NCBI GenBank assembly: GCA_049968235.1
Contig: JBMFRC010000001.1
Span: 96,001 to 160,000, forward strand
Direction of reading: 5' to 3'
Length of the DNA: 64,000 nt
Source of the DNA: Candidatus Hydrogenedens sp.
Lineage (GTDB): Bacteria > Hydrogenedentota > Hydrogenedentia > Hydrogenedentales > Hydrogenedentaceae
Positions 11,203 to 32,766 of this stretch are shown here, piece by piece. A program made the position numbers and the translations under genes. The notes beneath the pieces are model-generated. The model was not told the DNA's origin and did no database searches. It saw nothing but the letters and a program-made list of their open reading frames with translations. How positions within the stretch are numbered: the first letter of the stretch is position 1; every line of letters starts with the position of its first letter.

Positions 11203-11211
11203 AGTATATAT

Positions 11212-18900: not shown

Positions 18901-21900
18901 CTTCTATCAATGGGAATTTATCTCTTGCAATTGCAATATCATCGACCATAAATATAGATTGGTCAAGAAACCTACAATTTTCGTAAACGAAATACAGAGT
19001 ATGGGGATTCGGTAATACTAATAACAATGGGATTTCCTGCAGAGACCAATCTCCTTCTTCAATACTTCCGGCATCCTTAACCCATACAGGTGTTCCCGTT
19101 GTGTCATCCCAGTAAACTTTTAACTTCGTTTGCTCGGGCGAAGTTCCTTTTTCAACACGGACATAAAATTGGAGTTTTGTTGCACTGGGAGGAATGTTTA
19201 TCCCTGTTTGCCATAGCATACGTTTATCGAGTTTTGGACTCTTTAATTGAGCATACCACACACCGGTGTGAGCATCAATAAAACCTGTTGGACCGCCCTG
19301 AATTATCTGGCTTTTATCGGGAGTAGCATCCCATGGTGTTGCTAATCCGGATTCAAATCCGGGGTCTAACAGTATGTTATCCAAACACACTATTGGAATA
19401 GCAGGCATAAGTATTTCATAACCTAAACATACATCATCAATAAGAAAACGCACAGGAGTTTTATCACACTCTGTCATTGCCACTCGAATTGTAAGACTAT
19501 GCGGTTGCATATCCAAGTAGGGTAATAATTCATTATCTACCATTACCAATGTATAGTTATTCCAGTAGAAAGTATCATTGGCTCTTATTTTCTTTATGAC
19601 ATGGTCATCCACTAAAATTTCTAATTCTGTGTTTGATGTACTGGTTGCATCAAGGATTTTTAACCAAAAACTCAATACAGGTAATGGATTAACAGCACCA
19701 AATCGTAAGGCTCGTGTTCCTGTTATAGGGGGTTCTGGCAGAATGCAATCAACAGGATATGCTTTGTCATAACAATGAATAGGTCCCATAAGTAAAGCGG
19801 TAGCATTTTTGTTCCATGCGGAATCGGGATTCGTTTCAAATGAAGGATTCTGCACTGCATTATCAGGACATACCCCAAATGGGTCTATCAGGACTCCTAA
19901 TTCACCATAAGGGCTTACGCAGAAATCATCAAATAGAATAGATGAGCCTGGATTTAATGAAAAGATTCTTGCTTTTATATGAATTGAAAAACTACTAATA
20001 CTCTCTTCCAGTAACGGAGGAACTAACCATCTCTCTATTTTTGTCCAGACTCCATCTACTGGCATCCCTGAAACCCGAGAGTCATAAACAATTTTCGTTA
20101 CTATGTTCTCATCATCATCTAACCATACCTTAAAGAAATCTTGACTTCCGTCTACATTTACAGGTTTAACTTGAAAGGAAATCTTTGCTGGAGGAACTCC
20201 TCCCAATTCTGCACAGAAAGGAGCCTTATTTCCGCCTGTGGGTTTAATTATAGTTGCGATAGTTCTTTCGGGTATAGGAGGGTTGGTAACTAATACCCAG
20301 GACTCATCATTTCCTGCTTCAAAATTTCCATTGGGAACACTAATGCCATTCTCAGGCAACCTTAAATTCATTAAAGGACCCACAAGAAAACGGACATCAT
20401 CTATATCAAAAGTGGTCGTATTAAAATCAACACTATCGGGTGTAAGAGCACAGGGAGAAACGGTGCTTTCAATATGAAAAGTATGTTTCGCATTATCATT
20501 TGTTAAAGGTGATGGTATTTTAACTAAAATACGGGTGTATTCTCCGGCGTTTGGAATTAAATCGGGTCTATATTCAGGGATAGGTATCCAGTTACCAGGG
20601 CTAATCTCCGCAAATATCTCTGAAGCCATTAACATACTATCAAAATAAAACCTTAATATATCTGTTGTTTTTCCACTGAATATTTTTATTTTTATGAACA
20701 TCTCTACCCAGACTTCCCTCGGGGATATAGGAGAAGGACCTAAAATAAGGCATCTATCAGGAGGGAGACCCAACGGGTCATTTCCAATAGACCAATTCCC
20801 TTCGCCTGACCAGCCGATACATCCAACATCATCAAAGCTACCACAGACAATTGGAATTTCGGCAGTACTCATTCCCATATCTAAAAATATACGGAAATCA
20901 TCCAGATAAACAGTATTTTCACCTATACCCAATTTTGAAATCCGAAGCACAACGATAGGTACATCTAATGGATTATACTGTTGAATTAATGAAGTAACAT
21001 CGATATTCCATGTTATCCAATTCATTGGATTGGGTATTGCGGACAAAGGAATGGTATAAGTAGTAGATTCGTTCAACATTTCAATATATATTTCGACTTT
21101 ATCTCCGGAATCCACAGGGTCCGCACTACGCATAATTTCAAATTTCAGTTGTGCGGAAACAAGGTTCGGAAGGTCAATAGGCAATTGAGCAGAAAGAGAA
21201 AGGGTATTCTCCATATAGGAGATACCTGTTGGTTCTGTGCCTTTAGGGAAATCTATAGGTTGTGTCTGAAGTATATCTATAGCAGAGAGAACCTTAGGAA
21301 AAGTAATATCTTGCCAGACTTCCGGATAACCTGCTATGAGATAGGGGTCTCCTGATAAAGGGTCTTCTGTGAACTGGAAATTTTGATATATCTGGTCAGG
21401 TTCAAAGGGTTCATTTATTCCCTTAAACGAGGCTAAATGTGTGGGACTTAAAGCAAGAGTATTTTCCTCAATAATAGAGTAGGCCGGGTCATCCGGGTCT
21501 GGTGGGTCTACAAGTATATTCCAATCTGTCGAAGGAGATAGTTCAAAATTACTATTTTTTATAACTCCTTTGAATATATTATTTCCCATGATAATGACAT
21601 CCGTAGGTAAGATAGCAGAAGAAGGAGTTGTAGGGTTAGGAACACCTTTAAGCGTAATATCGCGATTGATGATAATCGGTTGTTTAATTTCATAAATGGT
21701 AGGAGTAGTAGTATCTGCCTCAATATGAAAAGTAGTTTCTAATGGGTTATTTAAAATAATATCAATGATATTATCTCCGGGATGTATAATAGTCTCTGCT
21801 TTTATACTTGAATGTAATGTTATGAATAGCAGTAGGAAAAATAAAGGGATATTTTTTGATAACTTCTCATTTACAGAATCCGTTTTATAACCCCTTTTTC

Positions 21901-21919
21901 GTCTTATTTGTTTTTTCAT
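15998..21919 (-). CDS. Giant secreted protein (1,973 aa) at the pilY1 position of the minor-pilin operon. It is a candidate pilus-associated adhesin.
   Basis: It has a Sec-type signal peptide (NIPLFFLLLFITLHSSIKAETI) and a long uninterrupted ORF immediately downstream of the PilX_N-type giant gene, separated by a 3-nt gap. No catalytic motifs were recognised. The PilY1-like role is inferred from synteny only. Confidence 0.5.
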   Translation of the reverse strand: MKKQIRRKRGYKTDSVNEKLSKNIPLFFLLLFITLHSSIKAETIIHPGDNIIDIILNNPLETTFHIEADTTTPTIYEIKQPIIINRDITLKGVPNPTTPSSAILPTDVIIMGNNIFKGVIKNSNFELSPSTDWNILVDPPDPDDPAYSIIEENTLALSPTHLASFKGINEPFEPDQIYQNFQFTEDPLSGDPYLIAGYPEVWQDITFPKVLSAIDILQTQPIDFPKGTEPTGISYMENTLSLSAQLPIDLPNLVSAQLKFEIMRSADPVDSGDKVEIYIEMLNESTTYTIPLSAIPNPMNWITWNIDVTSLIQQYNPLDVPIVVLRISKLGIGENTVYLDDFRIFLDMGMSTAEIPIVCGSFDDVGCIGWSGEGNWSIGNDPLGLPPDRCLILGPSPISPREVWVEMFIKIKIFSGKTTDILRFYFDSMLMASEIFAEISPGNWIPIPEYRPDLIPNAGEYTRILVKIPSPLTNDNAKHTFHIESTVSPCALTPDSVDFNTTTFDIDDVRFLVGPLMNLRLPENGISVPNGNFEAGNDESWVLVTNPPIPERTIATIIKPTGGNKAPFCAELGGVPPAKISFQVKPVNVDGSQDFFKVWLDDDENIVTKIVYDSRVSGMPVDGVWTKIERWLVPPLLEESISSFSIHIKARIFSLNPGSSILFDDFCVSPYGELGVLIDPFGVCPDNAVQNPSFETNPDSAWNKNATALLMGPIHCYDKAYPVDCILPEPPITGTRALRFGAVNPLPVLSFWLKILDATSTSNTELEILVDDHVIKKIRANDTFYWNNYTLVMVDNELLPYLDMQPHSLTIRVAMTECDKTPVRFLIDDVCLGYEILMPAIPIVCLDNILLDPGFESGLATPWDATPDKSQIIQGGPTGFIDAHTGVWYAQLKSPKLDKRMLWQTGINIPPSATKLQFYVRVEKGTSPEQTKLKVYWDDTTGTPVWVKDAGSIEEGDWSLQEIPLLLVLPNPHTLYFVYENCRFLDQSIFMVDDIAIARDKFPLIEVHLNGNLCIENLSLTQGSAGILNIQGMSKVSRSFIGPKLDDGVVVMPDGKASILQTVIYGSLNDGVLNNGTTAIVQSTIYSNGGIGVESKGTGSTYVMATLVWNNTGGGLVCEPGASLISGWNLVYPPIITGVTEVGTPITIDPLSVHFYDSPWIGKLITPIPSRVSLEAVLNYVPNIFIPYLSLTSCASPSPYTDFENEVRDIRNIQVSADEVIIGGAELLWSYCNVSPTVPRSATGRERDIGIGNEFTVEVGIQGETLDDATLYLVPEEYVPLVKNNPNPLSQLNKLPTELKQVVVPIDTTRQRGRSVFTMDSLFVTDTDGVLSTTNGRARIYLRVNQTLMGIGTNQEYRINFYLEDTEFVIDTVPPRLRNDLYDATAVGFVIQNNDVISPPSQFSYPPNWGPAVLNPLAYSYGTISNQTSPTAQMFFNNLPQSPLEYILQAGYSDPYPEYNGSPRIVEVAGFITNRSNVSTTTVTPIIDLLTNGPVYTGLEPFRGLGCAFIAPLNDIGRVLSYTSNPGVEYFATTDPSQTEYTQPWQSALVKWRWFNLGFGLDWHIRMKFLVKDLSGNLVVENPAQQDALELWWMRDPVIEIISAPRIGAWDKDPHIQWKLTRSVSDKPVNSDPCLPIFGIRIWSAIDPFNYETSIWEAVDRFVGRWGWIINRESMDKNTPIVFADGSITTLNDILSDKRYCGALLMATIIGADEAGNVQPIPNILFGNRFNSLGTITGNNVPFCIWRNPCEFDIDTKLDINSWWNRSTADPTTWRFINYNFGEREFGSSRRVPLPALENACDYRIEVKLNMSCILPSEGFVSGRIGFDIQIFEDSNLVAGGTASMLYGDTTAEICIPSDFLSPNEASTRFNLNWYTSTPEFLNLPPTQCGSGVFNDRLGDEGSPEGGFRKREVKYDFVVRAFVQDTTTGALVADTTPAKVTVTIYPPAGSSERSITAPSQPKEEQRIKMFQRE

Positions 21920-21922: not shown

Positions 21923-24900
21923 TTAATCCTCCTCATATCGGGCTGTGGGCACGCTCCTTTCATATATAACACTTGCTCTTGCTTCTGATTGAACAACAAA
22001 TTCGTCATTTGTCCGATAGCTATAACAACCGTCATTATTTCCATCTACACCGTAACCTAACTGTACCAGTGCTGTTATTTTGAAGACATCGGACCGTAGA
22101 CTAACATGGTCTGCAACAGATTCATATCTCGGGAGAACATCTGCTATCCTGCCGTTATAGTTTGTATTTACACTTAAAGGTAATAGATATTTAGAATTGA
22201 TTGTATTTGCAAGTTCTATGGGTGACAAATAATAGCGACCATCCGCATATTCCGGACGGTTTGTCATTAATAGATAAGATAATTGGAAAGCAGATAAAAT
22301 TGTGTCACTTACATTGTCAGCATAAACGGCATTGGTTGGTGGAATTGGGTTAACTCCATAAACAGGATTATTCAGGTCTTGATTTTTAGGGAGGATATTT
22401 GACCTATAATAGAAGCCTGGTAGACACATGGAAGATGCGAATATTCTCTTCTGACTTCCATCTGTATAGATATAGGGTCCGATGGTATTTACATTAATTT
22501 TGTGAAGGGAAGATTTCGCAGGGACTAAAGTAATATGTGTAAGAAAACACGGAGTATCACCTATGTTTCTTACTCGCAATGCTACAAATTTTTGTGTAAC
22601 TCGAACCATCTGGGGCTGCCAGCTGGCTGCGGCTTGCTGCCCATATAATATTATACCATCTTCATTCGGAGAAAAGTCAACAACATCTTCGTAATACCCC
22701 CCAACTTCTGTCCGATACCAGTCATCTGGATGTGTCAAACCTGTCTCAATTGTAGAACCTCTGGGCTTTAATCCTCTTGCTTTTGCAGGGTCTGTAATTA
22801 TTTCAAGAGCCAATCGTACCCTTGTTGTGTCATATTCTTTATTAATCCATAATTTGCCAAATTCTTGAGAGAATAATTCGTAAGGTGGATTACCCGAAGC
22901 ATGTAGTTGTTCATCATATTGTTGTAGTCGTCTTAATTGTTTTTCATTTACTACATTAATATAGACATAATAATCTCCATTTTCTAATCCATCATTAACA
23001 TCCCATACGAACAGTGCCTCAGGACGATTTTGTTCGGGATAAACGCTTCTATAACTACTTACATAGGCAAAAATGCGTTTAGGAATTTCCCATCGCTGAG
23101 CAATATCATTAATGTCTATTTGAGGTCTACCAAAGGCACTGTTGTTATTAAATAACCAACTGCCATTAGGTTGTGCATTGAATAAAGTGTTATATGGTGT
23201 AGGAAATGTTCCATTCCATAATGAGCCATCAACAAATCGGGGATAATTATATATTTCGCCTGGAAGCATAAATAGAAATAATGGGACCCATGCCTCAGGA
23301 TAGGTATTGCTGGCTAACTCACAGCGTAGTATATCTGTAAGGTTCGAACCGGAAGGGAAAACATCTGTTTCCGCAGGATTAGGTCTTATCGGAATAAAAT
23401 CTGCGGTTCCGACAGTAAGGATTTTTTCTGCTATTGTTATCATTGAAGAAGCACCCTTCAGAACTCTGCTTAATTCGTCCTTACCTTGAAGTTGACAGGC
23501 AAGGACATTTGCACTTGTCCATACCTGACGCCAGAATGTTTCACCTCCAACAACGGGATACAACGTTAAGTTCTGACGGTTTAAATCAAACAAGTATCTG
23601 TAATCTGGATTTGGGAATACCTGCCTTAATCGGTATAAGGAGTATAAGTATTCTCTCTGGATTGGTATTCCAACCTGGCTTAATGTCCCTGTATAGATTG
23701 TTCCTACATCTCGCCTCTGTTCTATATTCCAGTAAGGATACAATAGAGTGATGCTCCTGCCATTAATTACAGGAGAATCAGGTAAGGAGACGATTGGGAA
23801 TGAAAAATCTTTTCCTGATAGAGCAATTTCTGTATACGATTTGCCTAAGGGTGTCCCTCGATATGTATTGACAACAAAATCAATGTCCCTCTTATCACGA
23901 TAGGGATTATTATTCGTATACTGGAACAACGGGAAATTATTGGGTGCCACATTATCCAACATAACCAGTACGAGTTGTTCCAGATAGTGAGGTGATTCTT
24001 CCCAATCATCATAGAATCCATCTGTTGCCTCCCAACGGTTCGATAATCCAAAACGGTCTCCACTTAATTCTGGACTCTTGCGATTCAGGGAACGATAGAA
24101 ATCCCATAACATACAATCGGGTATCCACCAGGAAGAAAAATCGGCATTTAATTGCATACTACTATTGGGTGCAGGAAGTATGTCATCGATACAGCGGTTT
24201 ATAACATCATATTCATTATAAGAAACTCCATCTACCTGATTACCCTTAGTATCATATAAAGCCACGACGACACAATCGCCGGGATTCCATCGTCTTTCTA
24301 CAAAATATTTCCATTGGGGAGGGTCGTTGTCTGTTCCGAAGTAAGGCTCTATAAGATTGGGATTGCCAATATAATTGAACCCTGTTGTTATATTAATAGG
24401 TTGAACCTGGTCGTAAGGGTCAGTTATAAAGTCAACATCTACATTTCCTCCTATAACAGACATGTCTTTCAAATGGAAAATCGGCATCATACCTTGCTCA
24501 TAAGACCCATATCCATAAACCCTACCGTTAGTATAGGTGGTACCAGGTTCTACTCTACCTTCGTCAACTCCTTCGTTAAAGAAAACATTTAAAGGATTAT
24601 TAAAATCTGTCGGTCTATCGTCAATAACACCGTTTTGATTATTATCCACACCATCTTTTTCCAATGTCCCTAATATATAACTTCCCATACCTGTTAAATA
24701 ACCACCATCTCCATCATTGTCGTATCCATCATGCTCTGGATAATCCGGTAACATGCCTCCTTGCAGGACCAATTTAGCAAGGTCATTTAGCGTGGTTATT
24801 TCTTCTGTTTTTCTGCGTTCTGTATTTTCTCCATCAATAAGCGGAAACTCAACAGCATATAATGGGACAATCCTATCCCATGCTTTTCTGGGTCCAACTA

Positions 24901-27900
24901 TATTAAAATTGTTATCATTAGGAGTACTTCGTATTTCATTATCCGCAGGATTGTCTCCCGGTGTTCCATCTCCATTATAATCTGTAAAATCCTCTTCAAG
25001 ACCATTATTTATATATTCCCTGTGGAATACATTATTTGTTTCGTTCAGGGCCATAAACGGCGTCGTTATACCTACAAGGGGTTCTAACTCTGGAGGTACA
25101 GGAGCGGTAGGAATCACATCACAAAGTCCTATACCATTCCTTTTTATCAGAGATGCAGGGGTTAAATTGGGGTCCCGATAATGGTCAAATTTATCTCCAA
25201 TAAGATCTGAAGAAGAATCAAATGTCAGTAATAATCTCCCTTTGGGAGCAATAATATATCTATTATTTACATCATTTTCATCACCTATTTTAGCTGTTAC
25301 TTTAAAGGGGTCTGTGCGAACCCCTGAGTTATCTCGGGGAATACCAATCTCAATAGTATAGCCCGTTAAATCGATAGGATTATTTGAAATATTAGTAATT
25401 TCGATATACTCATGGTCGGGTTCCTGGCTGAAATCGAGAAAGTTTAATGCAATAGGTTCGTTATTAGGATTCTGTTCTAACCAAAAAGCAATACATACTG
25501 CATAATCGTTGGCTTGTCCATCAGCAGGGGTATATGGAGGAACTGTAATTGTAAAGGTCTTTCCACTAAGAGGTTGATTTTCAGGTAGAATTCCATCCAT
25601 CCAATAATAGTTAGGTGGAATTAATGTTCCTGATTCTAATTGTCCGGGTAAAAATACCATGCCTGTAGTCTCTCCACGAGCATTAACACCTATCCAGGTA
25701 TCCTGAACTCGCTGGAATACTGCATCATTAGTAACAATGGTGGGGTCTGCAAAAACATCGTCGAGAATAGAAGGTTCTATTAAAGTATCATCTGTGGTAT
25801 CCGCAGGATTATTTACATTGATAGGACAATATTTAATTGCGTATTTTATTCGTTTATTACTTCCACGTTGTAATGTTGGCTCTCCTGAAAGGTTTTGGGT
25901 ATTCAACATAAGATAATATCGACCTGCAGGTAAAGAATTTGTAGCACGGATTCGATACTCTACCACATTCGGAACACTAATTGTTTGTGGAGGAACTGTT
26001 GTCCTATCAATATATTGGAAAACAGGTAAGTTTGTTTCATAATAATTCCCTTTTCCCAATACATTATTATTGGCTAAATTCCATGGATTTGCTGGAATAA
26101 TGTCATGATTATTATCATCAGGGAAACGGTTACTCAGAGGTTCAAAATCAGTAAGGAATAAAGGGATTCCAGGTGGATAATTGGACCTATATGAATTATA
26201 AATGCTTTGATAAACAGGCACCTCCGCTTCTACTCTACGAACAGGTCTTACCATCAACTCGGTAATACGAATAGAGTCAACTCCAGCAACAGTATAGCTA
26301 ATAGAACGAAGGTCTTTCATAGGTGTTCCATCTTCACTGTTGGTCCCATTTTGTACTCGTTCTGACCACCAATAATCATTAATTACCCAATCAATATTAA
26401 ATTCTCCCAAAGTATTCTTAGCATATTGTTCTATTTCACGAAGTGAGAAATTCGATGGATGATAGCCTTTTTCATACGGGGACAATGAATTTATATTTTG
26501 GCTGGGAAGATAGACTCGTTTTTCTATTGAAGTCATCGGGTCGGGGACTTTTTCCGTAGTTAATCTTGTCTGTGCGACATCGGTATCACGTATATCTATC
26601 AGATTTACAGCTAACTGCATTGTTTTTAATACTGCATCCACAGGGAATACATAATTCGTTGTTGAATTGATTGCGGATATAGGTTCATTTGTGCCGTCAT
26701 CATAGTAAAAGAGGAAACCTACTTCATTTTTATCAGCACCAAACCATGTGTTCCATTCATGTTCATAACTCCGCAATCCTTGTGCGAAGTAATAAGCATC
26801 TTCTCCCATCGGCATTCTCCACGACATTGTATTGATACTGGGTACAGGTTTTTCTGATAAAAATATCGTTGATGCTAATTGCTGTGGAGTTGTGTAATTT
26901 ACATTCACCGGATTAATTCCTCTTAAAGAGGTGCCAAACTTCCGAATTTGAGTATTTTTTGATAAACCCATTGTGGTTATTACAGGCTTTACCTTTTCAA
27001 ATGCCTTTGTTCCTGGTGTCCCATAATCCGATAACTCACTAATCTGGTCGAGCGTGCTAATAATTCTGTCCCCTAATTCTCCGCTTTCATCTACATTGTT
27101 ATTGGTATTATTATCAACACGGTCTCTCTCTGCTAATTTGTTAACATAAGGCAATGTGTACTGAAATTCACCGGGTTCATCTATACCTTCCAAAATTCCC
27201 AGCAGGTCATTCACGCCATTATCAATAATTCCGTCTCCATCATCATCCAGTCCATTGGTAAATAGAAGAAACGCATTGGCATTGTCATCCACTGCCCCAT
27301 AACCCGGAAAAGCCACATCGTAATATAGGGCATTGGAATTCGTATTAAGAATATAGTCTGATTGCGAACTATCTATCTGCCCTCCGGGAGCACCGGTTAA
27401 TAAATTCCATAGTTTCCGCGCACGAATAACACCCATATCCGGTAAGTATCGAGTGTCCAGACCATAACCTATCAACCACGGAGATGAAATGCCCGGAATA
27501 AAATACGAATGAAACAATCTACTGGCAAGTAATGGATTCGGAGCAGAAAAATTAAAATCTATTGGATAATGCCCACCTGCAATATTTAGATTTACCTTTT
27601 TACTCTCATCCTCAATGTAAACAGCCATTCTTCCAACAAGGTCACAAACAGGTTCTCCAGTGTGTGTTATATGGATATAAGGAATTAGTCTTGTATAGTT
27701 TATAGTTCGAGTAATTCCTGCTATACCATCTCTATAAATCCCACGACCGGGAAAAACCTGCACACCGGGAAGAAATGGATTTCCCCCGGAATCTTTAAAT
27801 TTATTAATTTCTATGTAACTTGCTTCTCGAACAGCAGAAAATTTGGATTTATCTGCAGGGTTCCAATTACCGGGCATTGCAAACTTGGCAAAGCTATAAT

Positions 27901-29533
27901 CATAATTTTGGGTGTCCTCTTGATTCTTTTTGGTACGGTCATACATGGGGACACCCTGGTAAGGACCGCTGGGAACGAACCCTCTCAGCACAAACGGAGG
28001 TCCTGGTAACTGAATCGGTTCTGTATCTACTGATTCTTTAATTGTAAAGAAATCTATTATATTATTGGGACCTATATATGCGTAAGATTCAAAATTATTT
28101 ACTAACAAATCATAATCGTTGTCCAGACAATCTACATCATCCGCAGTTAAGGTATACCGCATTGAACCTGAAGGAGTATATCGAACCACATCTATAGAGG
28201 AAGGCATAATCACTTCCAGATACACTAAGTTTCCATTTTCATCGGGCACCATATCATTACGGTCTATTATCCCATCAGCATTCCAATCAACTTTCATCCG
28301 TAAACCCGGCAAAGGTGCTGTAAAAAAAACCTTTTGTTCGGCACTATCATCTACAATTCCATCACAGTTATTATCTAATCCATCATCACCTCCCCAATAT
28401 ACAAAAGCACCTACTTCAAACATTTCTTCGGGGTCCACTGTTTCATCGGGGGATTTATCTGTTGGGTCTTCTTGTGGTAATGCTTCATTCTGGAGGAAGA
28501 AAGGTCCCATTTCTTCATTAATCCCATTATCCGGTGTTTCGTCAATCAAACCATTTAAATTATTGTCCAAACCATCATTATGGCTCTGATGAATCTCTCC
28601 TGCAGAATCATAGACAACACCACTAAACAATTTATCTCCTGCCATTGGCATCCACACTGCATCTTTATAACCGTCACCATCTAAATCTACATCTGCCCAT
28701 GCATTTACCCATTCGGGAGTATACAAACTACTTGTAGCATAAGAATTTCCATTTCTGTCAAAACCTGTAAAAACAGGAGTACCATCCGGATTACGGACTG
28801 TTCCAAACATTGAGGGGAGAAGAAATGGTGCAGAACTTTTGGGAATGTCTCCTTCGCGAGTAATATCATCAAAAGTTTCTGCATTTACATTAAAACGGTA
28901 ATACAGAAAATTAGAGCCATCTTTTTGTGGAACCGAAACCCAACTGGATGAATTGGGTCCGGGAACAACTAATTCTGCATTTAAATCATAAAGAATAGGA
29001 GCATTGAAATCTTCAAGGCGTGGATAAAATAACCATTCTCGACTACGCGGTCCATTATATAACATTTCTGAGTAACCATCGGCAAAACGGACATACAAGA
29101 AACGATTTTCCGGGGGTAAACTTAACATAAACCCTTGCAAATTGGGGAAATTAATCCATAACCGTGCAATGTCAACATGCGGAATACTTCCCTTCCACTG
29201 CATTGAAGAACGGAGTGCAAAATATCCCCTACCTGCACCGGAATTTCTAAGTGCCCAGGGTTTGCCCGCAACCCAGGCACCGCTAAAAAAAGAACGCCAT
29301 ACATGGTCAGTCGAAGAAGCATAAGGGTGCTGATTTATATCGTTGTTCAATACAGAAATACCGATATTTAGTGCTCCTCTTAAAAGTTGGTCCGCCTGTG
29401 CTTGACGGAGCGATAATTCCGCTGTGTATAATTCACCCCTTGTTACAAAATAAAAAGTAAAACCGATGGCAAGAAGAATGGCAATAATTCCAATAGCAAG
29501 GACTAATGCCGCGCCCGTTTCAGGTTTTCGCAT
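21923..29533 (-). CDS. pilX: Giant protein (2,536 aa) with a PilX_N-type N-terminal domain (type IV pilus minor-pilin PilX-like) and multiple DxDxDG calcium-binding-loop motifs.
   Basis: The N-terminus MRKPETGAALVLAIGIIAILLAIGFTFYFVTRGELYTAELSLRQAQADQLLRGAL matches the PilX_N pattern, in which a hydrophobic helix is followed by 'A...AE.GL'. Repeated loops include DVDLDGDGYKD, DGLDNNCDGIVDD, NGLDDDGDGIIDNG, DGYDNDGDGGY and DGVDNNQNGVIDD. An AAGGAGAG Shine-Dalgarno lies 7 nt upstream of the ATG. The gene sits directly after the PilW-like gene, which is the canonical pilX slot. Confidence 0.6.
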   Translation of the reverse strand: MRKPETGAALVLAIGIIAILLAIGFTFYFVTRGELYTAELSLRQAQADQLLRGALNIGISVLNNDINQHPYASSTDHVWRSFFSGAWVAGKPWALRNSGAGRGYFALRSSMQWKGSIPHVDIARLWINFPNLQGFMLSLPPENRFLYVRFADGYSEMLYNGPRSREWLFYPRLEDFNAPILYDLNAELVVPGPNSSSWVSVPQKDGSNFLYYRFNVNAETFDDITREGDIPKSSAPFLLPSMFGTVRNPDGTPVFTGFDRNGNSYATSSLYTPEWVNAWADVDLDGDGYKDAVWMPMAGDKLFSGVVYDSAGEIHQSHNDGLDNNLNGLIDETPDNGINEEMGPFFLQNEALPQEDPTDKSPDETVDPEEMFEVGAFVYWGGDDGLDNNCDGIVDDSAEQKVFFTAPLPGLRMKVDWNADGIIDRNDMVPDENGNLVYLEVIMPSSIDVVRYTPSGSMRYTLTADDVDCLDNDYDLLVNNFESYAYIGPNNIIDFFTIKESVDTEPIQLPGPPFVLRGFVPSGPYQGVPMYDRTKKNQEDTQNYDYSFAKFAMPGNWNPADKSKFSAVREASYIEINKFKDSGGNPFLPGVQVFPGRGIYRDGIAGITRTINYTRLIPYIHITHTGEPVCDLVGRMAVYIEDESKKVNLNIAGGHYPIDFNFSAPNPLLASRLFHSYFIPGISSPWLIGYGLDTRYLPDMGVIRARKLWNLLTGAPGGQIDSSQSDYILNTNSNALYYDVAFPGYGAVDDNANAFLLFTNGLDDDGDGIIDNGVNDLLGILEGIDEPGEFQYTLPYVNKLAERDRVDNNTNNNVDESGELGDRIISTLDQISELSDYGTPGTKAFEKVKPVITTMGLSKNTQIRKFGTSLRGINPVNVNYTTPQQLASTIFLSEKPVPSINTMSWRMPMGEDAYYFAQGLRSYEHEWNTWFGADKNEVGFLFYYDDGTNEPISAINSTTNYVFPVDAVLKTMQLAVNLIDIRDTDVAQTRLTTEKVPDPMTSIEKRVYLPSQNINSLSPYEKGYHPSNFSLREIEQYAKNTLGEFNIDWVINDYWWSERVQNGTNSEDGTPMKDLRSISYTVAGVDSIRITELMVRPVRRVEAEVPVYQSIYNSYRSNYPPGIPLFLTDFEPLSNRFPDDNNHDIIPANPWNLANNNVLGKGNYYETNLPVFQYIDRTTVPPQTISVPNVVEYRIRATNSLPAGRYYLMLNTQNLSGEPTLQRGSNKRIKYAIKYCPINVNNPADTTDDTLIEPSILDDVFADPTIVTNDAVFQRVQDTWIGVNARGETTGMVFLPGQLESGTLIPPNYYWMDGILPENQPLSGKTFTITVPPYTPADGQANDYAVCIAFWLEQNPNNEPIALNFLDFSQEPDHEYIEITNISNNPIDLTGYTIEIGIPRDNSGVRTDPFKVTAKIGDENDVNNRYIIAPKGRLLLTFDSSSDLIGDKFDHYRDPNLTPASLIKRNGIGLCDVIPTAPVPPELEPLVGITTPFMALNETNNVFHREYINNGLEEDFTDYNGDGTPGDNPADNEIRSTPNDNNFNIVGPRKAWDRIVPLYAVEFPLIDGENTERRKTEEITTLNDLAKLVLQGGMLPDYPEHDGYDNDGDGGYLTGMGSYILGTLEKDGVDNNQNGVIDDRPTDFNNPLNVFFNEGVDEGRVEPGTTYTNGRVYGYGSYEQGMMPIFHLKDMSVIGGNVDVDFITDPYDQVQPINITTGFNYIGNPNLIEPYFGTDNDPPQWKYFVERRWNPGDCVVVALYDTKGNQVDGVSYNEYDVINRCIDDILPAPNSSMQLNADFSSWWIPDCMLWDFYRSLNRKSPELSGDRFGLSNRWEATDGFYDDWEESPHYLEQLVLVMLDNVAPNNFPLFQYTNNNPYRDKRDIDFVVNTYRGTPLGKSYTEIALSGKDFSFPIVSLPDSPVINGRSITLLYPYWNIEQRRDVGTIYTGTLSQVGIPIQREYLYSLYRLRQVFPNPDYRYLFDLNRQNLTLYPVVGGETFWRQVWTSANVLACQLQGKDELSRVLKGASSMITIAEKILTVGTADFIPIRPNPAETDVFPSGSNLTDILRCELASNTYPEAWVPLFLFMLPGEIYNYPRFVDGSLWNGTFPTPYNTLFNAQPNGSWLFNNNSAFGRPQIDINDIAQRWEIPKRIFAYVSSYRSVYPEQNRPEALFVWDVNDGLENGDYYVYINVVNEKQLRRLQQYDEQLHASGNPPYELFSQEFGKLWINKEYDTTRVRLALEIITDPAKARGLKPRGSTIETGLTHPDDWYRTEVGGYYEDVVDFSPNEDGIILYGQQAAASWQPQMVRVTQKFVALRVRNIGDTPCFLTHITLVPAKSSLHKINVNTIGPYIYTDGSQKRIFASSMCLPGFYYRSNILPKNQDLNNPVYGVNPIPPTNAVYADNVSDTILSAFQLSYLLMTNRPEYADGRYYLSPIELANTINSKYLLPLSVNTNYNGRIADVLPRYESVADHVSLRSDVFKITALVQLGYGVDGNNDGCYSYRTNDEFVVQSEARASVIYERSVPTARYEED

Positions 29534-29639: not shown

Positions 29640-31427
29640 TTACATTCCTGCGGGCATTCTCCTTGGTTGAGGAGTTCGTAGTCCGCACGGAATATCAATA
29701 GATTGACTAAACCAGCGCCTGAAATCAGAAACACCGGGCTGCGGCTTTTCGGTACAAACCCAGGCACTGACAGTGATTCTAACTGGTAAACGCTCAAAGA
29801 AAACAGTTGCAAAGGGTGATGTCTGACTGGGGTCTGTCCCTTTCATCTCGGTCCAGACCCTGTCTAAAAAGGCTGTTAAACATTCTGCTTGAGGAACCGT
29901 TAAAGATTCTGGTGGCAAAGAGAGGTAATGGGAGAAAAGAGGGATACTTCGTATATCATTAAAATACATTACGGTCTGGTTTTCTTCTGATTGATACGAA
30001 AAAATATTTCCGGGGAAAAGCATATCTGTTGAAGTTATTAAGCCATTGATTTCATCAATCCAGTAGGCATGAGCCCCAAAGCCATCTGCTAACACATAAT
30101 CCAGCGGGTTCTGTCCATTTGTTTCCCAGAAATTGTATAAGACTTCTGTGTTCGGGTATGGATTACCTGTCCCTCCGGTTAGTAGTTGATACAAATACAT
30201 CTGGTCTCGCCGTGCAATAGATAGGTCATAACTCCAGATATAAGGAGACAAATTTAATATACCTCCCTGACCTGTAATTGCGAGAACATTGGTTGGATTT
30301 CTTAATAGATTAAACCACTCGTTACAGAATTGTCGTGAATTATAAACTTGCATTAATAAAAGTCGTAATTCCGCTTTTCGGATGGTTATTAAATCATTTA
30401 CAAAATTTGTATCAATCGTTTGATAATTAGGATTATTTATGTAATTTCTTAAATCTTTAACAACATTCACAGAAGGGGTCTGAGTTTCTACCGGACTGAC
30501 CATACTCACACCGCTTTGTGTACCCGTTCCTTCAATTATAAAAGCATGTAATAGAGCATCAATAGTCGAATAACCTGTATAGGAAAACGGATTTTCAACC
30601 GTAGACAAATCAGGGTCGGGCATTGATTGGATTGCTGTTCCTGAAGAATCTATAAAACCTTTCTTTAATTCTATATCGATAATGTTTGCTTTTGTAGTTT
30701 CTTCGATACGGAATAAAGCCATTGGTTGAACACGAACGCGATATGCCTGTTCTTCTGATGACAATTGACCAATTACATTTGCCTCAGATTGCACTTCTGG
30801 AAATGGGTCTCCTGTGGTGAGCAGACTATCCAGATTGTTTACGATTGTAGTTACATCACAACCCGCGGGCAAACCCGCCTGAATTTTGGGAAGAATATCA
30901 TCAAAGAAATAAACGGCACTTTCATTGGGAATTTTATTGGCTTCTCGCTTCATTCCCTTTTCTTTGGAAATCCTATCCGGCAAATTATCCTTTGGTCCTA
31001 TTGGTAACCATGTTTCAAATACCGGGATGGATGGACTTGGAGCAAAGAAGTATGTTACTCTTCCTACCTGTCCATTATCCAGCATAGTTACAAAAGTTAA
31101 AGCGGTAGGAGTCCCATAAAATTGGACTTTTTCTCCGCGATTAGCAAGTGTACAAGCCCGTTCCAGATCGCGAGATAATATTTCCATAGCAGACCGTGCA
31201 TTCCCATAACTCTCTTTTACCATGTATCCCTGATGGGTAGATTCGATAGCCGAAACAAACATTGTAACCAGCCCTGTCAAAATAATGGATAATATAGCCA
31301 TCGCCACCACAAGTTCGATAAGTGTCATACCTGTTCTATATTTCGTATCACTTGTATATAACAACTCTACTTGTTTTTTATTGTTGTTCTGTAACATAGG
31401 TAACGAACCTTTCTTCTCTCCCATCAT
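29640..31427 (-). CDS. pilW: PilW/GspJ-family minor pilin (type IV prepilin-like N-terminus), enlarged to about 560-595 aa.
   Basis: The prepilin motif is YRTG|MTLIELVVAMAILSIILTGLVTMFVSAIE, with Glu at +5 after the Gly cleavage site. It continues ...ARSAMEILSRDLERA, as in the PilW family. The real start is probably the internal MLQNNNKK..., since the annotated start overlaps the upstream gene by 50 nt. Confidence 0.55.
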   Translation of the reverse strand: MMGEKKGSLPMLQNNNKKQVELLYTSDTKYRTGMTLIELVVAMAILSIILTGLVTMFVSAIESTHQGYMVKESYGNARSAMEILSRDLERACTLANRGEKVQFYGTPTALTFVTMLDNGQVGRVTYFFAPSPSIPVFETWLPIGPKDNLPDRISKEKGMKREANKIPNESAVYFFDDILPKIQAGLPAGCDVTTIVNNLDSLLTTGDPFPEVQSEANVIGQLSSEEQAYRVRVQPMALFRIEETTKANIIDIELKKGFIDSSGTAIQSMPDPDLSTVENPFSYTGYSTIDALLHAFIIEGTGTQSGVSMVSPVETQTPSVNVVKDLRNYINNPNYQTIDTNFVNDLITIRKAELRLLLMQVYNSRQFCNEWFNLLRNPTNVLAITGQGGILNLSPYIWSYDLSIARRDQMYLYQLLTGGTGNPYPNTEVLYNFWETNGQNPLDYVLADGFGAHAYWIDEINGLITSTDMLFPGNIFSYQSEENQTVMYFNDIRSIPLFSHYLSLPPESLTVPQAECLTAFLDRVWTEMKGTDPSQTSPFATVFFERLPVRITVSAWVCTEKPQPGVSDFRRWFSQSIDIPCGLRTPQPRRMPAGM

Positions 31428-31803
31428 TGAGCCTTACCTTAAAGGTTACCCGATACAACCCTTTACCCATAGGAACGCGTGATGCAGAAGCCCCATAATG
31501 TTGATATAGTTCATAAGCACTGGCGGTTGTTTCTATTTGCTGAAAGGCATTATCTTTTAACCATGAATTTAGACCTGTGGATAAAGCCCCGCCTACACGA
31601 ACACGACTCATTTCTGTTCGTGCTAAATTGGATATATTAGCATTTGCAGATGCATCAATTAATAATTTTTGTGCTGAGGGAAACAATGTGAATATTGCCA
31701 CCAATCCACCTGCAATAATAGCAAGGGCAATAACAATCTCTAAAATAGAGAAGCCTAATTCTTTATTTCTATAATTATTTGTATGTATTATATTTTTTTT
31801 CAT
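31378..31803 (-). CDS. pilV: PilV/GspI-like small minor pilin (141 aa).
   Basis: The prepilin N-terminus is ELGFSILEIVIALAIIAGGLVAIFTLF. It has the small size typical of PilV/GspI and sits between the FimU-like and PilW-like genes. Confidence 0.55.
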   Translation of the reverse strand: MKKNIIHTNNYRNKELGFSILEIVIALAIIAGGLVAIFTLFPSAQKLLIDASANANISNLARTEMSRVRVGGALSTGLNSWLKDNAFQQIETTASAYELYQHYGASASRVPMGKGLYRVTFKVRLNDGREERFVTYVTEQQ

Positions 31804-32684
31804 ATTTCTATCTTTATCCTGCCTGTTACCCGAAACAGATTCAACAAACTCATTTTATGCGTTACCCACAAACTATCCCCAGGGATTTGTCCTTGAATGT
31901 TTTCAGGGAGAATCATAGGTTCTGAGTTAGTCGTATCTACTAATGCAAGAATATATCGTTCTTTTATCATCGTATTAGAAGTGGGAAGAAGTTTTCCATC
32001 CGGTCCAAAAATATGGGCATACCATGAAAATTTAGCACCGGAGTTTAAATATGTTATAGGGGCTTGTGCCGTTTGTTCTAAGTCTAAAAATGGAACTTTC
32101 ACTATGGATAATCCGAGCAAACTCATGGAATTTCCCTCGTCAATAGAACGCAAAATAGGAACTGTCACTGTAAGAGAATTGGGGACAATAACATTTTCTC
32201 GAAACTCTACATTACAAAGAATTACACCCTCTTCAAATCGTTTATTCATACCGTATTCTGATTTAGCCTCAATAGGGACATAAATACTATCCCAATCACT
32301 GGGAAATCCCAATCTATCACGAATATCATCAAAACCTTCATTATTCTTCTTACTAATTTCATACATTACCGCCGCAGAGACCAATGCATGTATATGTCTC
32401 TCCCCTGGAATAACTCCTTGATTTGTTTCTACATTCGTTGTAGGAACGGGCACGAATACATCTCCATATACAACGGCGGTATTCACACGATAGGTCGTAG
32501 CATAGATTTTTGCCACCTGCATAATTTGAGCCAGTTCTCTTGCTGTGCGTTTTACCGGGTCTGTTGCGTCTTTATAAAAGCGGAAAATAGAAGGAATGGA
32601 AATGAGAGTTAACATTCCCACAATTCCCATTACAACCAGTAGTTCCGTTAATGTGTAACCTTGTTTTCTTTTTCTGGCAAACAT
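31800..32684 (-). CDS. fimU: FimU/FimT/GspH-family minor pilin (294 aa).
   Basis: The prepilin N-terminus is KQGYTLTELLVVMGIVGMLTLISIPSIFRFYKDATDPVKRTARELAQIMQVAKIYA. The leading helix followed by 'AR..A..........A' is typical of GspH/FimU. It is the first gene of the minor-pilin set. Confidence 0.5.
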   Translation of the reverse strand: MFARKRKQGYTLTELLVVMGIVGMLTLISIPSIFRFYKDATDPVKRTARELAQIMQVAKIYATTYRVNTAVVYGDVFVPVPTTNVETNQGVIPGERHIHALVSAAVMYEISKKNNEGFDDIRDRLGFPSDWDSIYVPIEAKSEYGMNKRFEEGVILCNVEFRENVIVPNSLTVTVPILRSIDEGNSMSLLGLSIVKVPFLDLEQTAQAPITYLNSGAKFSWYAHIFGPDGKLLPTSNTMIKERYILALVDTTNSEPMILPENIQGQIPGDSLWVTHKMSLLNLFRVTGRIKIEI

Positions 32685-32766
32685 TTTATAACAAGTCTTT
32701 CATATTTAGAAGGGCAATGTATGTTCTACCTTCCCATACATTGCCCTTATATTAGTCAAATATTCA

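What the first reader, a model, noticed from the sequence alone, without database searches (positions are those of the whole stretch)
21923..29533. A 2,536-aa protein with a PilX-type N-terminus occupying the pilX slot, a candidate giant pilus-tip adhesin studded with Ca-binding-like loops
The N-terminus (GAALVLAIGIIAILLAIGFTFYFVTRGELYTAELSLRQAQADQLLRGAL) has the architecture of the PilX_N domain. That domain is a non-cleaved pilin-like helix followed by the A..AE.GL motif. The gene lies exactly where pilX sits in fimU-pilV-pilW-pilX-pilY1 operons, yet PilX proteins are normally about 170-200 aa. The remaining roughly 2,450 aa contain at least six aspartate-rich loops of DxDxDGxxD/N type: DVDLDGDGYKD, DNNLNGLIDE, DDGLDNNCDGIVDD, DDDGDGIIDNG, DNDGDGGY and DNNQNGVIDD. 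These resemble EF-hand, thrombospondin-type-3 or dockerin-like Ca2+ sites. Established work on Pseudomonas PilY1 shows that a Ca2+ site of this type governs pilus extension and retraction. A pilin-like helix fused to a multi-kilodalton Ca-binding beta-rich body would be a pilus-tip-integrated giant adhesin. It would also show that the T4P machinery can display proteins more than 250 kDa in size.
Basis: partly seen in the sequence, partly recalled or inferred. Interest (0 to 1): 0.8.

Follow-up and report, generated by a model that had tools for sequence, protein, structure and literature searches.

The report
Giant GspK/PilX-class pilus-tip pilin
This 2,536-residue gene encodes a hugely expanded version of the small cap subunit (GspK/PilX class) that sits at the tip of type IV pili, conserved across the uncultured phylum Hydrogenedentota, and is among the largest pilin-like proteins seen so far, though the design principle is already known from smaller examples.

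Summary
The ORF (21923-29533, minus strand, 2,536 aa, 286 kDa, pI 4.5) is real and intact. About 150 relatives exist at the 50%-identity level. Full-length ones are 1,985-3,431 aa and almost all come from Candidatus Hydrogenedentota. It lies fifth in a pilin row (290-294-141-595-2,536 aa) inside a conserved operon with PilB, PilT, a second PilB-like ATPase, PilC, PilM and a secretin. This is the GspK/PilX slot.

Pfam PilX_N does not hit this protein, but other evidence places it in the GspK/PilX class:
- NCBIfam GspK matches all 17 family members tested.
- PilX_N matches 2 of the 17.
- A family profile with the insertions removed aligns to canonical GspK at 97% probability (E 8e-11).

It is not a helix fused to a body. 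The GspK core is split. Helix α1 and the DExxKxNLN strand are separated by about 510 aa. The closing helix and β-hairpin are the last 70 residues. About 1,800 aa, including a lamin-tail domain (LTD), occupy the position of GspK's α-domain.

The aspartate loops are real: 11 occur against 0.7 expected. They are strongly conserved, but belong to no known Ca-binding family. Calcium binding and tip adhesion remain inferences. Structure models were mediocre and matched no known fold.

Verdict: a new, extreme variant of a known kind.

The parts
21923..29533 (-). Giant GspK/PilX-class minor pilin gene (2,536 aa, 285.8 kDa, pI 4.5)
   Evidence: ORF list and translation. RBS. Mass and pI. Homologues of 1,985-3,431 aa.
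29330..29533 (-). Residues 1-68: short basic leader, invariant Gly7 (-1), AALVL (no Glu5), 23-residue hydrophobic stretch continuing as a long helix α1
   Evidence: AF2 helix 7-68. hhalign 3-65 <-> window GspK 10-72, E 7e-6. NCBIfam GspK residues 6-69. The +5 residue is I/L/V/M in 31/31 sequences.
29255..29314 (-). Residues 74-93: conserved 'TSxDHxWRSxFxGAWxAGKPW' segment that follows α1
   Evidence: Invariant S74, D76, G85, G90, K91, W93. Lies inside the 97%-probability alignment to GspK 9-122.
27698..29236 (-). Residues ~100-612: insertion 1, a β-rich module absent from canonical GspK. It carries five conserved Asp/Asn loops at 281-291, 320-331, 383-396, 416-424 and 468-475.
   Evidence: Removing it gives one continuous alignment to GspK 9-122. 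In the 1,038-aa relative P0297 this region is only ~20 residues. AF2 pLDDT is 76-91 for 120-220 and 370-640. Loop conservation.
27575..27676 (-). Residues 620-653: two β-strands plus the 'GEPVCxLVGRxAxYIxDESKKVNLNxAG' motif. This is the GspK-type DExxKxNLN segment.
   Evidence: Invariant G626, E627, P628, G634, R635, A637, D642, N650. Matches GspK 111-122. TIGR02600 matches residues 631-653. AF2 strands 620-624 and 630-639.
22529..27574 (-). Residues 654-2335: insertion 2, ~1,680 aa at the position of GspK's α-domain. It holds further conserved Asp loops (749-771, 1602-1609, 1627-1638), a lamin-tail domain that appears split, and several confidently folded β modules. There are no internal repeats.
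   Evidence: Conservation. Pfam LTD 1370-1439, found in 15/17 members. Foldseek lamin Ig-fold, probability 0.96. No self-similarity. AF2.
25217..25429 (-). Residues 1369-1439: core of the lamin-tail domain ('SQEPDHEYIEITNIS...DLTGYTIE'). Likely further LTD pieces lie at residues 1088-1104 (nt 26222-26272) and 1752-1844 (nt 24002-24280).
   Evidence: Pfam PF00932, 28.9 bits, model positions 22-70 only. The flanking pieces were assigned by eye from conserved motifs and from colinear matches to P0297. That assignment is an inference.
22199..22504 (-). Residues 2344-2445: 'KINVNT' motif plus a 'LPG ... DGRYYxSxxEL' helix-hairpin-helix-like segment. It corresponds to the second half of GspK's α-domain.
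   Evidence: Invariant N2347, N2349, T2350, G2373, D2431, R2433. hhalign 2344-2357 <-> GspK 240-253, E 0.03. Family profile 2216-2382 <-> GspK 241-343. Relative P0297 carries Pfam HHH_3 here. The match is weak on its own.
21956..22159 (-). Residues 2459-2526: terminal helix and β-hairpin ('RSDVFKITALVQLGY...EFVVQSEARASVIYER') that closes the pilin β-sheet in cis. A DGNNDG loop sits in the hairpin turn.
   Evidence: hhalign 2463-2487 <-> GspK 319-343, E 7e-5, probability 62%. AF2 helix 2459-2474 and strands 2483-2495 and 2512-2525. Invariant S2481, G2493, D2497, D2501, G2502, R2507, F2512, Y2524.
29640..33639 (-). Four upstream prepilin-type genes: 290 aa (pilin, GspG-like N-terminus), 294 aa (H/FimU slot), 141 aa (I/PilV-like) and 595 aa (J/PilW-like). 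All have Glu5.
   Evidence: N_methyl and TIGR02532 hits, with weak PilV/XpsI/GspJ/HpsC hits. Conserved in 26-31 of 32 long loci.
33764..39805 (-). Motor and platform genes: PilB-like ATPase (37964-39805), PilT (36832-37941), second PilB-like ATPase (35023-36801) and PilC/GspF (33764-35005).
   Evidence: TIGR01420 pilT_fam, 461 bits against a cutoff of 319. PilB/GspE and GspF/PilC hits.
15998..21919 (-). Downstream 1,973-aa protein with a Sec-type signal peptide. It starts 3 nt after the giant's stop codon. The C-terminal half is conserved and the N-terminal half is variable, so it is a candidate PilY1 analogue.
   Evidence: Translation. Conservation profile. No Pfam PilY1 hit and no PDB hit. 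Present in 24/32 long loci.
7420..15922 (-). Rest of the operon: PEGA/FGE-sulfatase-domain protein (14525-15922), PilM-like Amuc_1101-family protein (12180-14270), two unknowns (11212-12183 and 10690-11202), and a TPR-secretin of 1,085 aa (7420-10677).
   Evidence: Synteny.

Best explanation
The gene encodes the apical (GspK/PilX/PilK-class) minor pilin of a Hydrogenedentota-specific type IVa-pilus-like machine. Two massive insertions have expanded it about six- to eight-fold.

**Shown**
- It has a class-III-type N-terminus with an invariant Gly at -1 and no Glu5.
- It has a ~60-residue helix α1.
- It carries the GspK 'DExxKxNLN' strand and loop, and a GspK-like C-terminal helix plus β-hairpin at the extreme end.
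- It sits after H-, I- and J-slot pilins in an operon with PilB, PilT, PilC, PilM and a secretin.
- About 510 aa are inserted after α1. About 1,700 aa are inserted where GspK carries its α-domain.
- The inserts are non-repetitive, contain a lamin-tail domain, and carry at least nine conserved DxDxDG-type acidic loops.

**Inferred**
- A prepilin peptidase cleaves the protein after Gly7.
- The α1 helix and the reconstituted β-sheet dock onto the I-J pair (141 and 595 aa) and the H-slot pilin. Together they form the priming complex that caps the filament.
- The ~250 kDa acidic, probably Ca2+-stabilised head is thereby carried at the pilus tip as a ligand-binding or adhesive module.
- The co-transcribed 1,973-aa secreted protein may join it, in the manner of PilY1.
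- The last β-strands follow ~2,400 residues of body. The pilin fold can therefore close only after the whole protein has been exported and folded. This would license filament assembly in cis, as proposed for GspK, ComZ and CpaL.
- PilT would allow retraction against whatever the head binds.
For: **Class assignment**
- NCBIfam GspK matches residues 6-69. It matches 17/17 family members, best 3.9e-9.
- Pfam PilX_N matches 2/17 members, best 1.4e-6.
- hhalign of family segments against the window's own GspK gives four colinear matches.
- The insertion-deleted family profile against a 54-sequence GspK alignment gives 97% probability and E 8e-11 over α1 through DExxKxNLN. The C-terminal strand scores E 7e-5.
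- The family profile matches a 1,038-aa LTD/HHH_3 relative in 10 colinear segments, E 2e-31. It matches a 935-aa relative in 3 segments.
- The +5 residue is never Glu in 31/31 aligned sequences, nor in the 72 of 85 full-length members where the N-terminal motif could be located.
- AF2 predicts helix 7-68 and the terminal hairpin.

**Context**
- Pilin order and Glu5 in the neighbours.
- PilT above its curated cutoff.
- Synteny in 31-32 of 32 long loci, down to 27% identity.

**Loops**
- 11 observed against 0.74 expected.
- Invariant aspartates.
- Four loops lie in model regions with pLDDT 76-91.

**Literature**
- GspK and XcpX bind 2-3 Ca2+ (PMC6211770).
- GspK-class pilins lack Glu5 and cap the tip. 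The C-terminal β-strand licenses assembly in cis or in trans (PMC13533445).
- Large inserted modules are known in ComZ (PMC6561018) and in cyanobacterial PilX/HpsA (10.64898/2026.02.12.705559).
Against: - Pfam PilX_N and the T2SSK models do not hit this protein.
- NCBIfam scores are far below the family cutoffs: 15.8 against 130 bits for GspK, and 11.6 against 332 for Verru_Chthon_A.
- The middle of GspK (its α-domain) has no significant counterpart. The INVNTA match is only E 0.03.
- AF2 models are mediocre (mean pLDDT 61 and 59).
- No prepilin peptidase gene lies in the window.
- A 286 kDa head, plus a 1,973-aa partner, must pass a secretin. No data show that it does.
- The organism is uncultured, so nothing shows piliation, Ca2+ binding or adhesion.
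Confidence: 0.62

Rival explanations
1. It caps a short periplasmic pseudopilus and never leaves the cell. The machine would be a T2SS-like secretion or surface-display system. The giant K subunit stays under or inside the secretin as a plug, gate-opener or cargo adaptor, for example for the co-transcribed 1,973-aa secreted protein.
For: - The core resembles GspK more than PilX: NCBIfam GspK matches 17/17 members and PilX_N only 2/17.
- The first pilin has a GspG-like N-terminus.
- PilC scores as GspF just above its cutoff.
- A very large folded head is hard to pass through a secretin.
- A large Sec-dependent protein is translationally coupled downstream.
Against: - A complete canonical T2SS with its own 424-aa GspK lies next door at 40019-52731.
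- This operon has a bona fide PilT (461 bits) and a PilM-type protein, which are hallmarks of retractile type IVa pili.
- Conserving a 250 kDa acidic multi-domain head across a phylum is easier to explain if the head faces the environment.
Confidence: 0.17
2. It is a membrane-anchored envelope protein and not a filament subunit. The N-terminal helix would be an uncleaved signal anchor. The body would be a periplasmic or cell-surface scaffold that merely co-evolved with the pilus operon.
For: - No experimental evidence of processing exists, and no peptidase gene lies in the window.
- The Pfam pilin models are silent on this protein.
- The size is unprecedented for a polymerised pilin.
Against: - Gly at -1 is invariant within the conserved R/T-G-A-A-L motif.
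- The GspK motifs are retained in order, including the closing C-terminal strands.
- The position directly after the I and J pilins is strict in 31/32 loci.
Confidence: 0.1
3. It is an ordinary Sec-secreted giant adhesin. Its N-terminal similarity to pilins would be a chance effect of hydrophobic composition.
For: - The body is acidic, rich in Asn, Asp and Gly, and contains an LTD, as many surface proteins do.
- Another giant PKD/TIG surface protein lies in the same window.
Against: - The hydrophobic segment is 23 residues long and continues as a 60-residue helix, with no AxA cleavage site.
- Similarity to GspK extends to non-hydrophobic motifs at residues 640-651 and 2463-2487.
- There are no tandem repeats.
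- Synteny with the pilins is fixed.
Confidence: 0.03

Closest known systems
GspK / XcpX, the T2SS minor pseudopilin at the pseudopilus tip (PDB 3CI0, XcpVWX structure; PMC6211770)
   Same: - The N-terminus lacks Glu5 and α1 is long.
- The DExxKxNLN strand and loop are present.
- The large insertion sits in the middle of the pilin β-sheet.
- The closing C-terminal β-strand is supplied in cis.
- GspK has documented Ca2+ sites.
- The gene follows H, I and J.
   Different: - It is 6-8 times larger.
- A second insertion of ~510 aa follows α1.
- The α-domain position holds ~1,700 aa, including an LTD.
- Scores are far below the equivalog cutoff (15.8 against 130 bits).
- It sits in a PilT-containing pilus-type operon, while a normal GspK serves the neighbouring T2SS.
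Verru_Chthon cassette protein A (NCBIfam TIGR02600, ~1,300 aa, uncharacterised, encoded with three prepilin-type proteins)
   Same: - It is a large protein encoded with prepilin-type cassette proteins.
- It shares the GRxAxxIxDExxKxNxN motif.
- 13/17 family members hit the model, best 1.7e-9.
- A 935-aa protein (P0298), which I take to be of this type although it was never scanned against the model, matches the family profile in three colinear segments.
   Different: - This protein scores 11.6 bits against a cutoff of 332.
- It is about twice the size.
- It comes from a different phylum.
- No function is known for either family, and no paper mentions the cassette.
Cyanobacterial PilX, including HpsA-like PilX_EPS (>1,280 aa), and Thermus ComZ (PMC6561018; 10.64898/2026.02.12.705559)
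   Same: These are apical PilX/GspK-class pilins whose fold is interrupted by a bulky module. They are proposed to act as a tip plug, adhesin or receptor, and to make PilY1 dispensable.
   Different: - In those proteins the insert is a β-solenoid between the penultimate and last β-strands. Here the insertions lie after α1 and at the GspK α-domain position.
- No solenoid or other known fold was detected here.
- NCBIfam HpsA did not hit.
PilY1 / PilC tip adhesins
   Same: - The proposed role is the same: a large tip-associated, Ca2+-dependent adhesin.
- The variable-N / conserved-C pattern is seen in the downstream 1,973-aa protein.
   Different: - PilY1 is not a pilin and has a C-terminal β-propeller (PF05567).
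- Neither the giant nor its neighbour hits that family.
Modular pilins sensu Raynaud et al. 2021 (S. sanguinis PilB/PilC, CofB; PMC8179133)
   Same: A pilin module carries extra functional modules for display by the filament.
   Different: - In those proteins the modules are appended after a complete pilin fold. Here they are nested inside it.
- The most extreme case in that survey was 860 aa.

Membership tests
GspK/PilX/PilK class of apical minor pilins | Class-III-type N-terminus with Gly at -1 and no Glu at +5 | tested here: met
   The site is G7|AALVL. Gly is invariant and +5 is I/L/V/M in 31/31 sequences. No Glu occurs at +5 in the 72 of 85 full-length members where the N-terminal motif could be located. 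The four neighbouring pilins all have Glu5.
GspK/PilX/PilK class of apical minor pilins | Profile similarity of the N-terminal helix to GspK / PilX_N models | tested here: inconclusive
   Pfam PilX_N gives no hit on this protein, although it hits 2/17 orthologues at up to 1.4e-6. NCBIfam GspK gives E 0.008 here and matches 17/17 members, best 3.9e-9, always far below the 130-bit cutoff. hhalign against the window's GspK gives E 7e-6.
GspK/PilX/PilK class of apical minor pilins | Pilin β-sheet that includes the DExxKxNLN segment and a closing C-terminal β-strand | tested here: met
   hhalign of the insertion-deleted profile gives 97% probability and E 8e-11 through the motif, and E 7e-5 for the C-terminal strand. 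AF2 predicts strands at 620-639, 2483-2495 and 2512-2525. Packing into one sheet could not be modelled.
GspK/PilX/PilK class of apical minor pilins | Encoded after the H-, I- and J-type minor pilins of a type IV filament machine | tested here: met
   The gene order is 290-294-141-595-2,536 aa, with PilB, PilT, PilC, PilM and a secretin. The order is conserved in 31/32 long loci.
GspK/PilX/PilK class of apical minor pilins | Forms a tip complex with the I and J subunits and is cleaved by a prepilin peptidase | not testable with these tools
T2SS GspK proper (Pfam T2SSK / T2SSK_1st; NCBIfam NF037980 equivalog) | SAM-like/HhH α-domain recognised by PF21687 / PF03934, and a score above the equivalog cutoff | tested here: not met
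   There is no T2SSK or T2SSK_1st hit, and the score is 15.8 against 130 bits. The window's 424-aa GspK does hit PF21687 at 7.6e-16.
Verru_Chthon cassette protein A (TIGR02600) | Score above the 332-bit cutoff across the ~1,300-position model | tested here: not met
   The score is 11.6 bits over residues 631-653 only. 13/17 relatives hit weakly.
PilY1/PilC adhesins (PF05567) | C-terminal β-propeller domain | tested here: not met
   Neither the giant, its 16 homologues, nor the downstream 1,973-aa protein gives a hit. Fold searches gave no propeller.
EF-hand / thrombospondin type 3 / dockerin / MopE metal-binding motifs | Significant match to the family profile | tested here: not met
   Scanning the loop-bearing segments at E<=10 gave only EF-hand_1 at E 1.8 and Cu-binding_MopE at E 3.4. 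The loops fit the generic DxDxDG pattern only.
Lamin-tail-domain (LTD, PF00932) proteins | LTD profile match | tested here: inconclusive
   The score is 28.9 bits, below the 34.3 gathering cutoff, and covers model positions 22-70 only. 15/17 homologues match, best 4.8e-8. Foldseek gives lamin Ig-fold probability 0.96 at E 0.085.

The most novel reading that the evidence does not exclude
These may be the largest pilin-class proteins known (2,000-3,400 aa). If so, they are a built-in assembly checkpoint as well as a tip device. The strands that close the pilin fold follow ~2,400 residues of nested, Ca2+-stabilised domains. Pilus priming would then be licensed only once a ~250 kDa head is fully exported and folded. 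That head, plus a ~220 kDa partner, would have to be carried through, or assembled beyond, a TPR-bearing secretin. This would imply a much larger export capacity, or a different route, than is currently accepted for type IV filament machines.
Probability: 0.25. Interest if true: 0.7.

Novelty: new variant of a known kind. Interest (0 to 1): 0.48.

Why it matters
Tip subunits decide what a type IV pilus binds and whether it assembles at all. Recent work shows that GspK/PilX-class caps can carry inserted modules, and that their last β-strand licenses assembly.

This family pushes that design to 2,000-3,400 residues, with two insertion sites and a phylum-wide conserved operon. It marks an upper bound on what a pilin scaffold tolerates. 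It also raises the question of what a secretin must let through.

The family gives a natural size series for studying how such caps grow by nested insertion:
- 424-aa GspK
- ~935-1,040-aa relatives
- 2,536-aa giant

It also points to a probably important surface organelle in Hydrogenedentota, a widespread phylum whose members in these collections are known only from metagenome assemblies. The practical limit is that nothing can yet be tested in culture.

Tried and rejected
1. **Pfam on the whole protein and on residues 1-150 at E<=10.** There was no PilX_N, T2SSK, N_methyl or PilY1 hit. Only a sub-threshold LTD appeared.
2. **PDB sequence search with the family profile.** Nothing was found.
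3. **Structure prediction of an insertion-deleted 'mini-core' (1-110 + 612-860 + 2290-2536).** This was intended to test the split pilin fold.
4. **AF2 of residues 1-1080 and 1337-2536 with 30-31-sequence alignments.** Mean pLDDT was 61 and 59. These models were useful for secondary structure only.
6. **Internal repeats and similarity to neighbouring giants.** I compared the protein with itself, with the downstream 1,973-aa protein and with the 2,765-aa protein. Nothing scored at E<=1. The 'repetitive adhesin' idea is rejected.
7. **Loop segments against EF-hand, TSP3, dockerin and MopE profiles.** No membership was found.
8. **PADLOC defence models.** None hit.
9. **phmmer of the C-terminal 257 aa against 1.84 billion representatives.** It found only this family (151 hits) and no ordinary-sized GspK. 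The link to GspK needs profile methods.
10. **Literature.** No paper covers Hydrogenedentes pili or the Verru_Chthon cassette.
11. **One mistyped coordinate call**.
Full report
**1.

The minus-strand ORF 21923-29533 encodes 2,536 residues. An AGGAG ribosome-binding site lies 9-10 nt upstream. The protein is 285.8 kDa with pI 4.5 and is rich in Asn, Asp and Gly.

The aspartate loops are not a composition effect:
- There are 11 [DN]x[DN]x[DN]G motifs, against a mean of 0.74 and a maximum of 4 in 500 shuffles.
- Three copies of the longer DGxDN[DN]x[DN]GxxD pattern occur, against none in the shuffles.
- The loop aspartates are invariant or nearly so in alignments of 17-31 homologues that share only 27-40% identity overall.

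**2. It is a real, conserved gene family**

A protein search found 30 homologues, all 2,100-3,300 aa. Where named, they come from Candidatus Hydrogenedens or Hydrogenedentes. A scan of one genome per species found 121 relatives in 73 loci. Most are labelled Hydrogenedentota; many others carry uninformative or different labels (uncultured bacterium, Nitrospirales, one Bathyarchaeia), which I take to be labelling problems. The closest is Ca. Hydrogenedens terephthalaticus at 88% identity.

An exhaustive phmmer search with the last 257 residues found 151 representatives at the 50% clustering level. Full-length ones span 1,985-3,431 aa, with a median of about 2,640.

**3. Context**

All genes below lie on the minus strand. 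The window holds two machines.

A complete canonical T2SS occupies 40019-52731: GspC, D, E, F, G, H, I, J, K, L/M. It has an ordinary 424-aa GspK that hits Pfam T2SSK_1st at 7.6e-16.

A second operon follows directly downstream:

| Gene | Coordinates or size | Note |
|---|---|---|
| PilB-like ATPase | 37964-39805 | |
| PilT | 36832-37941 | TIGR01420, 461 bits against cutoff 319 |
| second PilB-like ATPase | 35023-36801 | |
| PilC/GspF | 33764-35005 | |
| prepilin-type proteins | 290, 294, 141, 595 aa | all carry Glu5 |
| the giant | 2,536 aa | |
| secreted protein | 1,973 aa | Sec signal; starts 3 nt after the giant's stop |
| PEGA/FGE-sulfatase protein | 14525-15922 | |
| PilM-like protein | 12180-14270 | Amuc_1101 family |
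| two unknowns | 11212-12183, 10690-11202 | |
| TPR-secretin | 1,085 aa | |

This order is kept in loci whose giant is only 27-36% identical. It is kept in 31-32 of 32 long related loci on the upstream side. The giant therefore sits in the K/X slot of a PilT-containing, type IVa-pilus-like operon.

**4. What the protein is**

Pfam PilX_N does not hit, even on the isolated N-terminus at E<=10. The class assignment is nevertheless supported by several independent results:

- NCBIfam GspK matches residues 6-69 (E 0.008). It matches all 17 aligned family members, best 3.9e-9.
- Pfam PilX_N hits 2 of the 17, best 1.4e-6.
- Gly7 is invariant, and the +5 residue is never Glu. Glu5 absence is the hallmark of the apical PilK/GspK/PilX subunit (PMC13533445).
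- AF2 predicts an uninterrupted helix from 7 to 68.
- Family sub-alignments compared with the window's own GspK give four colinear matches:
  - α1, E 7e-6
  - 'IEDESKKVNLN' 640-651 <-> 'ISDEYGKINLN' 111-122, E 0.007
  - 'KINVNT' 2344-2357 <-> 240-253, E 0.03
  - 2459-2487 <-> 315-343, E 0.02
- I cut out the poorly conserved or inserted regions and compared the resulting 606-column profile with a 54-sequence GspK alignment. One continuous alignment covered α1 through the DExxKxNLN motif (GspK 9-122) at 97% probability, E 8e-11. The C-terminal helix-to-strand segment scored E 7e-5.
- A last database search with that mini-core profile found smaller relatives. One is P0297, a 1,038-aa protein with LTD and HHH_3 signatures, encoded next to PilMN and a TPR-secretin. 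Another is P0298, 935 aa.
- The full family profile matches P0297 in ten colinear segments (E 2e-31). It matches P0298 in three. It matches the 424-aa GspK at both ends.

**5. Architecture**

The protein is a GspK core pulled apart:
- Residues 1-93 are α1 plus a conserved Trp-containing segment.
- An insertion of about 510 residues separates them from the strand pair and DExxKxNLN loop at 620-653. That region is only about 20 residues in P0297.
- About 1,700 residues then occupy the place of GspK's α-domain.
- After that come the INVNT/HhH-like remnant (2344-2445) and the closing helix plus β-hairpin (2459-2526).

The inserted material has no internal repeats. It shows no similarity to the neighbouring giant proteins. 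It contains a lamin-tail domain, found in 15/17 members, with Foldseek lamin Ig-fold probability 0.96. From motif positions the LTD itself seems split by further insertions, but that is an inference.

**6. The acidic loops**

The loops fit the generic DxDxDG calcium-binding pattern. Four of them (323, 387, 416 and 468) lie in model regions with pLDDT 76-91. Others fall in low-confidence stretches. None of the loop segments belongs to the EF-hand, thrombospondin-3, dockerin or MopE families.

Strong conservation argues against disordered linkers. Canonical GspK and XcpX bind two to three Ca2+ ions (PMC6211770), so calcium stabilisation is a reasonable inference. It is still untested.

**7. Mechanism**

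The best-supported reading runs as follows:
- Prepilin-peptidase cleavage occurs after Gly7.
- The α1 helix and β-sheet core assemble with the I-slot (141 aa), J-slot (595 aa) and H-slot (294 aa) pilins into the priming or tip complex.
- The acidic head of about 250 kDa is displayed at the filament tip, and PilT allows retraction.

The closing strands come last. The fold can therefore be completed only after the whole body is exported and folded. This matches the 'β-strand addition in cis' licensing model proposed for GspK, ComZ and CpaL (PMC13533445).

The downstream 1,973-aa protein has a Sec signal. Its C-terminal half is conserved and its N-terminal half is variable. PilC/PilY1 proteins show the same pattern, although no PilY1 domain is detectable. 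It may be a tip partner.

Three rivals cannot be excluded computationally and are scored accordingly: a non-emerging pseudopilus cap, a membrane-anchored scaffold, and a chance resemblance.

**8. Comparison with the known**

The concept is established:
- GspK carries an α-domain inside the pilin sheet.
- ComZ and all cyanobacterial PilX proteins carry a β-solenoid between the last two strands. HpsA-like members exceed 1,280 aa (PMC6561018; 10.64898/2026.02.12.705559).
- The uncharacterised 'Verru_Chthon cassette protein A' (~1,300 aa) shares the motif.
- Modular pilins up to 860 aa were surveyed in PMC8179133.
- PilC/PilY1 proteins up to 3,500 aa have been noted (PMC13533445).

What is new here:
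- the scale, 2,000-3,400 aa
- the two insertion sites and the nested LTD
- the battery of conserved acidic loops
- the lack of any recognisable fold for most of the body
- the phylum-wide conserved operon, which also contains an unusual PEGA/FGE-sulfatase-domain protein

I found no literature on it. I rate it a new variant of a known kind, of moderate interest.

Noticed in passing
window 15998-21919 (-): A 1,973-aa protein with a Sec-type signal peptide starts 3 nt after the giant's stop codon. Across related loci its C-terminal ~400-900 residues are conserved and its N-terminal half is variable. PilC/PilY1 shows the same pattern, but no PilY1 domain or PDB relative is detectable.
   Followed up: partly
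window 14525-15922 (-): A 465-aa protein with three PEGA domains and an FGE-sulfatase (formylglycine-generating-enzyme-like) domain. It shows weak similarity to the T9SS ring lipoprotein PorK/GldK (E 1e-26, far below cutoff). It sits between the large proteins and PilM and was found in 22 of 32 long related loci, which is unusual for a pilus operon.
   Followed up: partly
window 40019-52731 (-): A complete canonical T2SS operon (GspC-D-E-F-G-H-I-J-K-L/M) lies immediately upstream of the pilus-like operon. It has an ordinary 424-aa GspK. The organism therefore keeps a normal and a giant K-class subunit side by side.
   Followed up: yes
window 55399-63696 (-) and 52915-55332 (-): A further giant protein (2,765 aa, PKD and TIG domains) and an 805-aa protein with weak zinc-metalloprotease and EF-hand matches lie upstream of the T2SS. 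They are possible secreted or surface cargo. The 2,765-aa protein has no sequence similarity to the giant pilin; the 805-aa protein was not compared.
   Followed up: partly
window 35023-36801 and 37964-39805 (-): Two PilB-type assembly ATPases flank PilT in one operon. Both carry N-terminal MshEN-type c-di-GMP-binding motifs (NF053729, E 1e-17). This suggests c-di-GMP control and perhaps two assembly modes.
   Followed up: no
window 7420-10677 (-) and 12180-14270 (-): The secretin is 1,085 aa and has N-terminal TPR repeats. The PilM-like protein (696 aa) matches the Akkermansia Amuc_1101 family model (277 bits, below its 650-bit cutoff), and the secretin weakly matches the Amuc_1098 family. 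This hints at a relationship with the Akkermansia Amuc_1098-1102 pilus-like locus.
   Followed up: no
L077 5302-8418 (protein P0297, 1,038 aa): This is a much smaller relative of the giant, from an unnamed metagenome. It has the same colinear motifs: GspK N-terminus, a single DVDNDGD loop, DELSFLNIN, LTD, KINVNTA/HHH_3 and the C-terminal 'HSDIYRIIVTAQ' strand. It is encoded next to an Ig-like protein, PilMN and a TPR-secretin. It serves as an evolutionary intermediate showing where the giant's insertions went in.
   Followed up: partly
window 31378-31427: The 141-aa (I-slot) and 595-aa (J-slot) pilin ORFs overlap by 50 nt as called from the first ATG. The J-slot protein probably starts at a later Met, closer to its G|MTLIE cleavage site.
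   Followed up: no
window 32767-33639 (-): The first pilin of the operon, presumably the major subunit, is 290 aa. That is about twice the usual size of a type IVa major pilin. It is better conserved (43-49% in distant loci) than the minor pilins.
   Followed up: no
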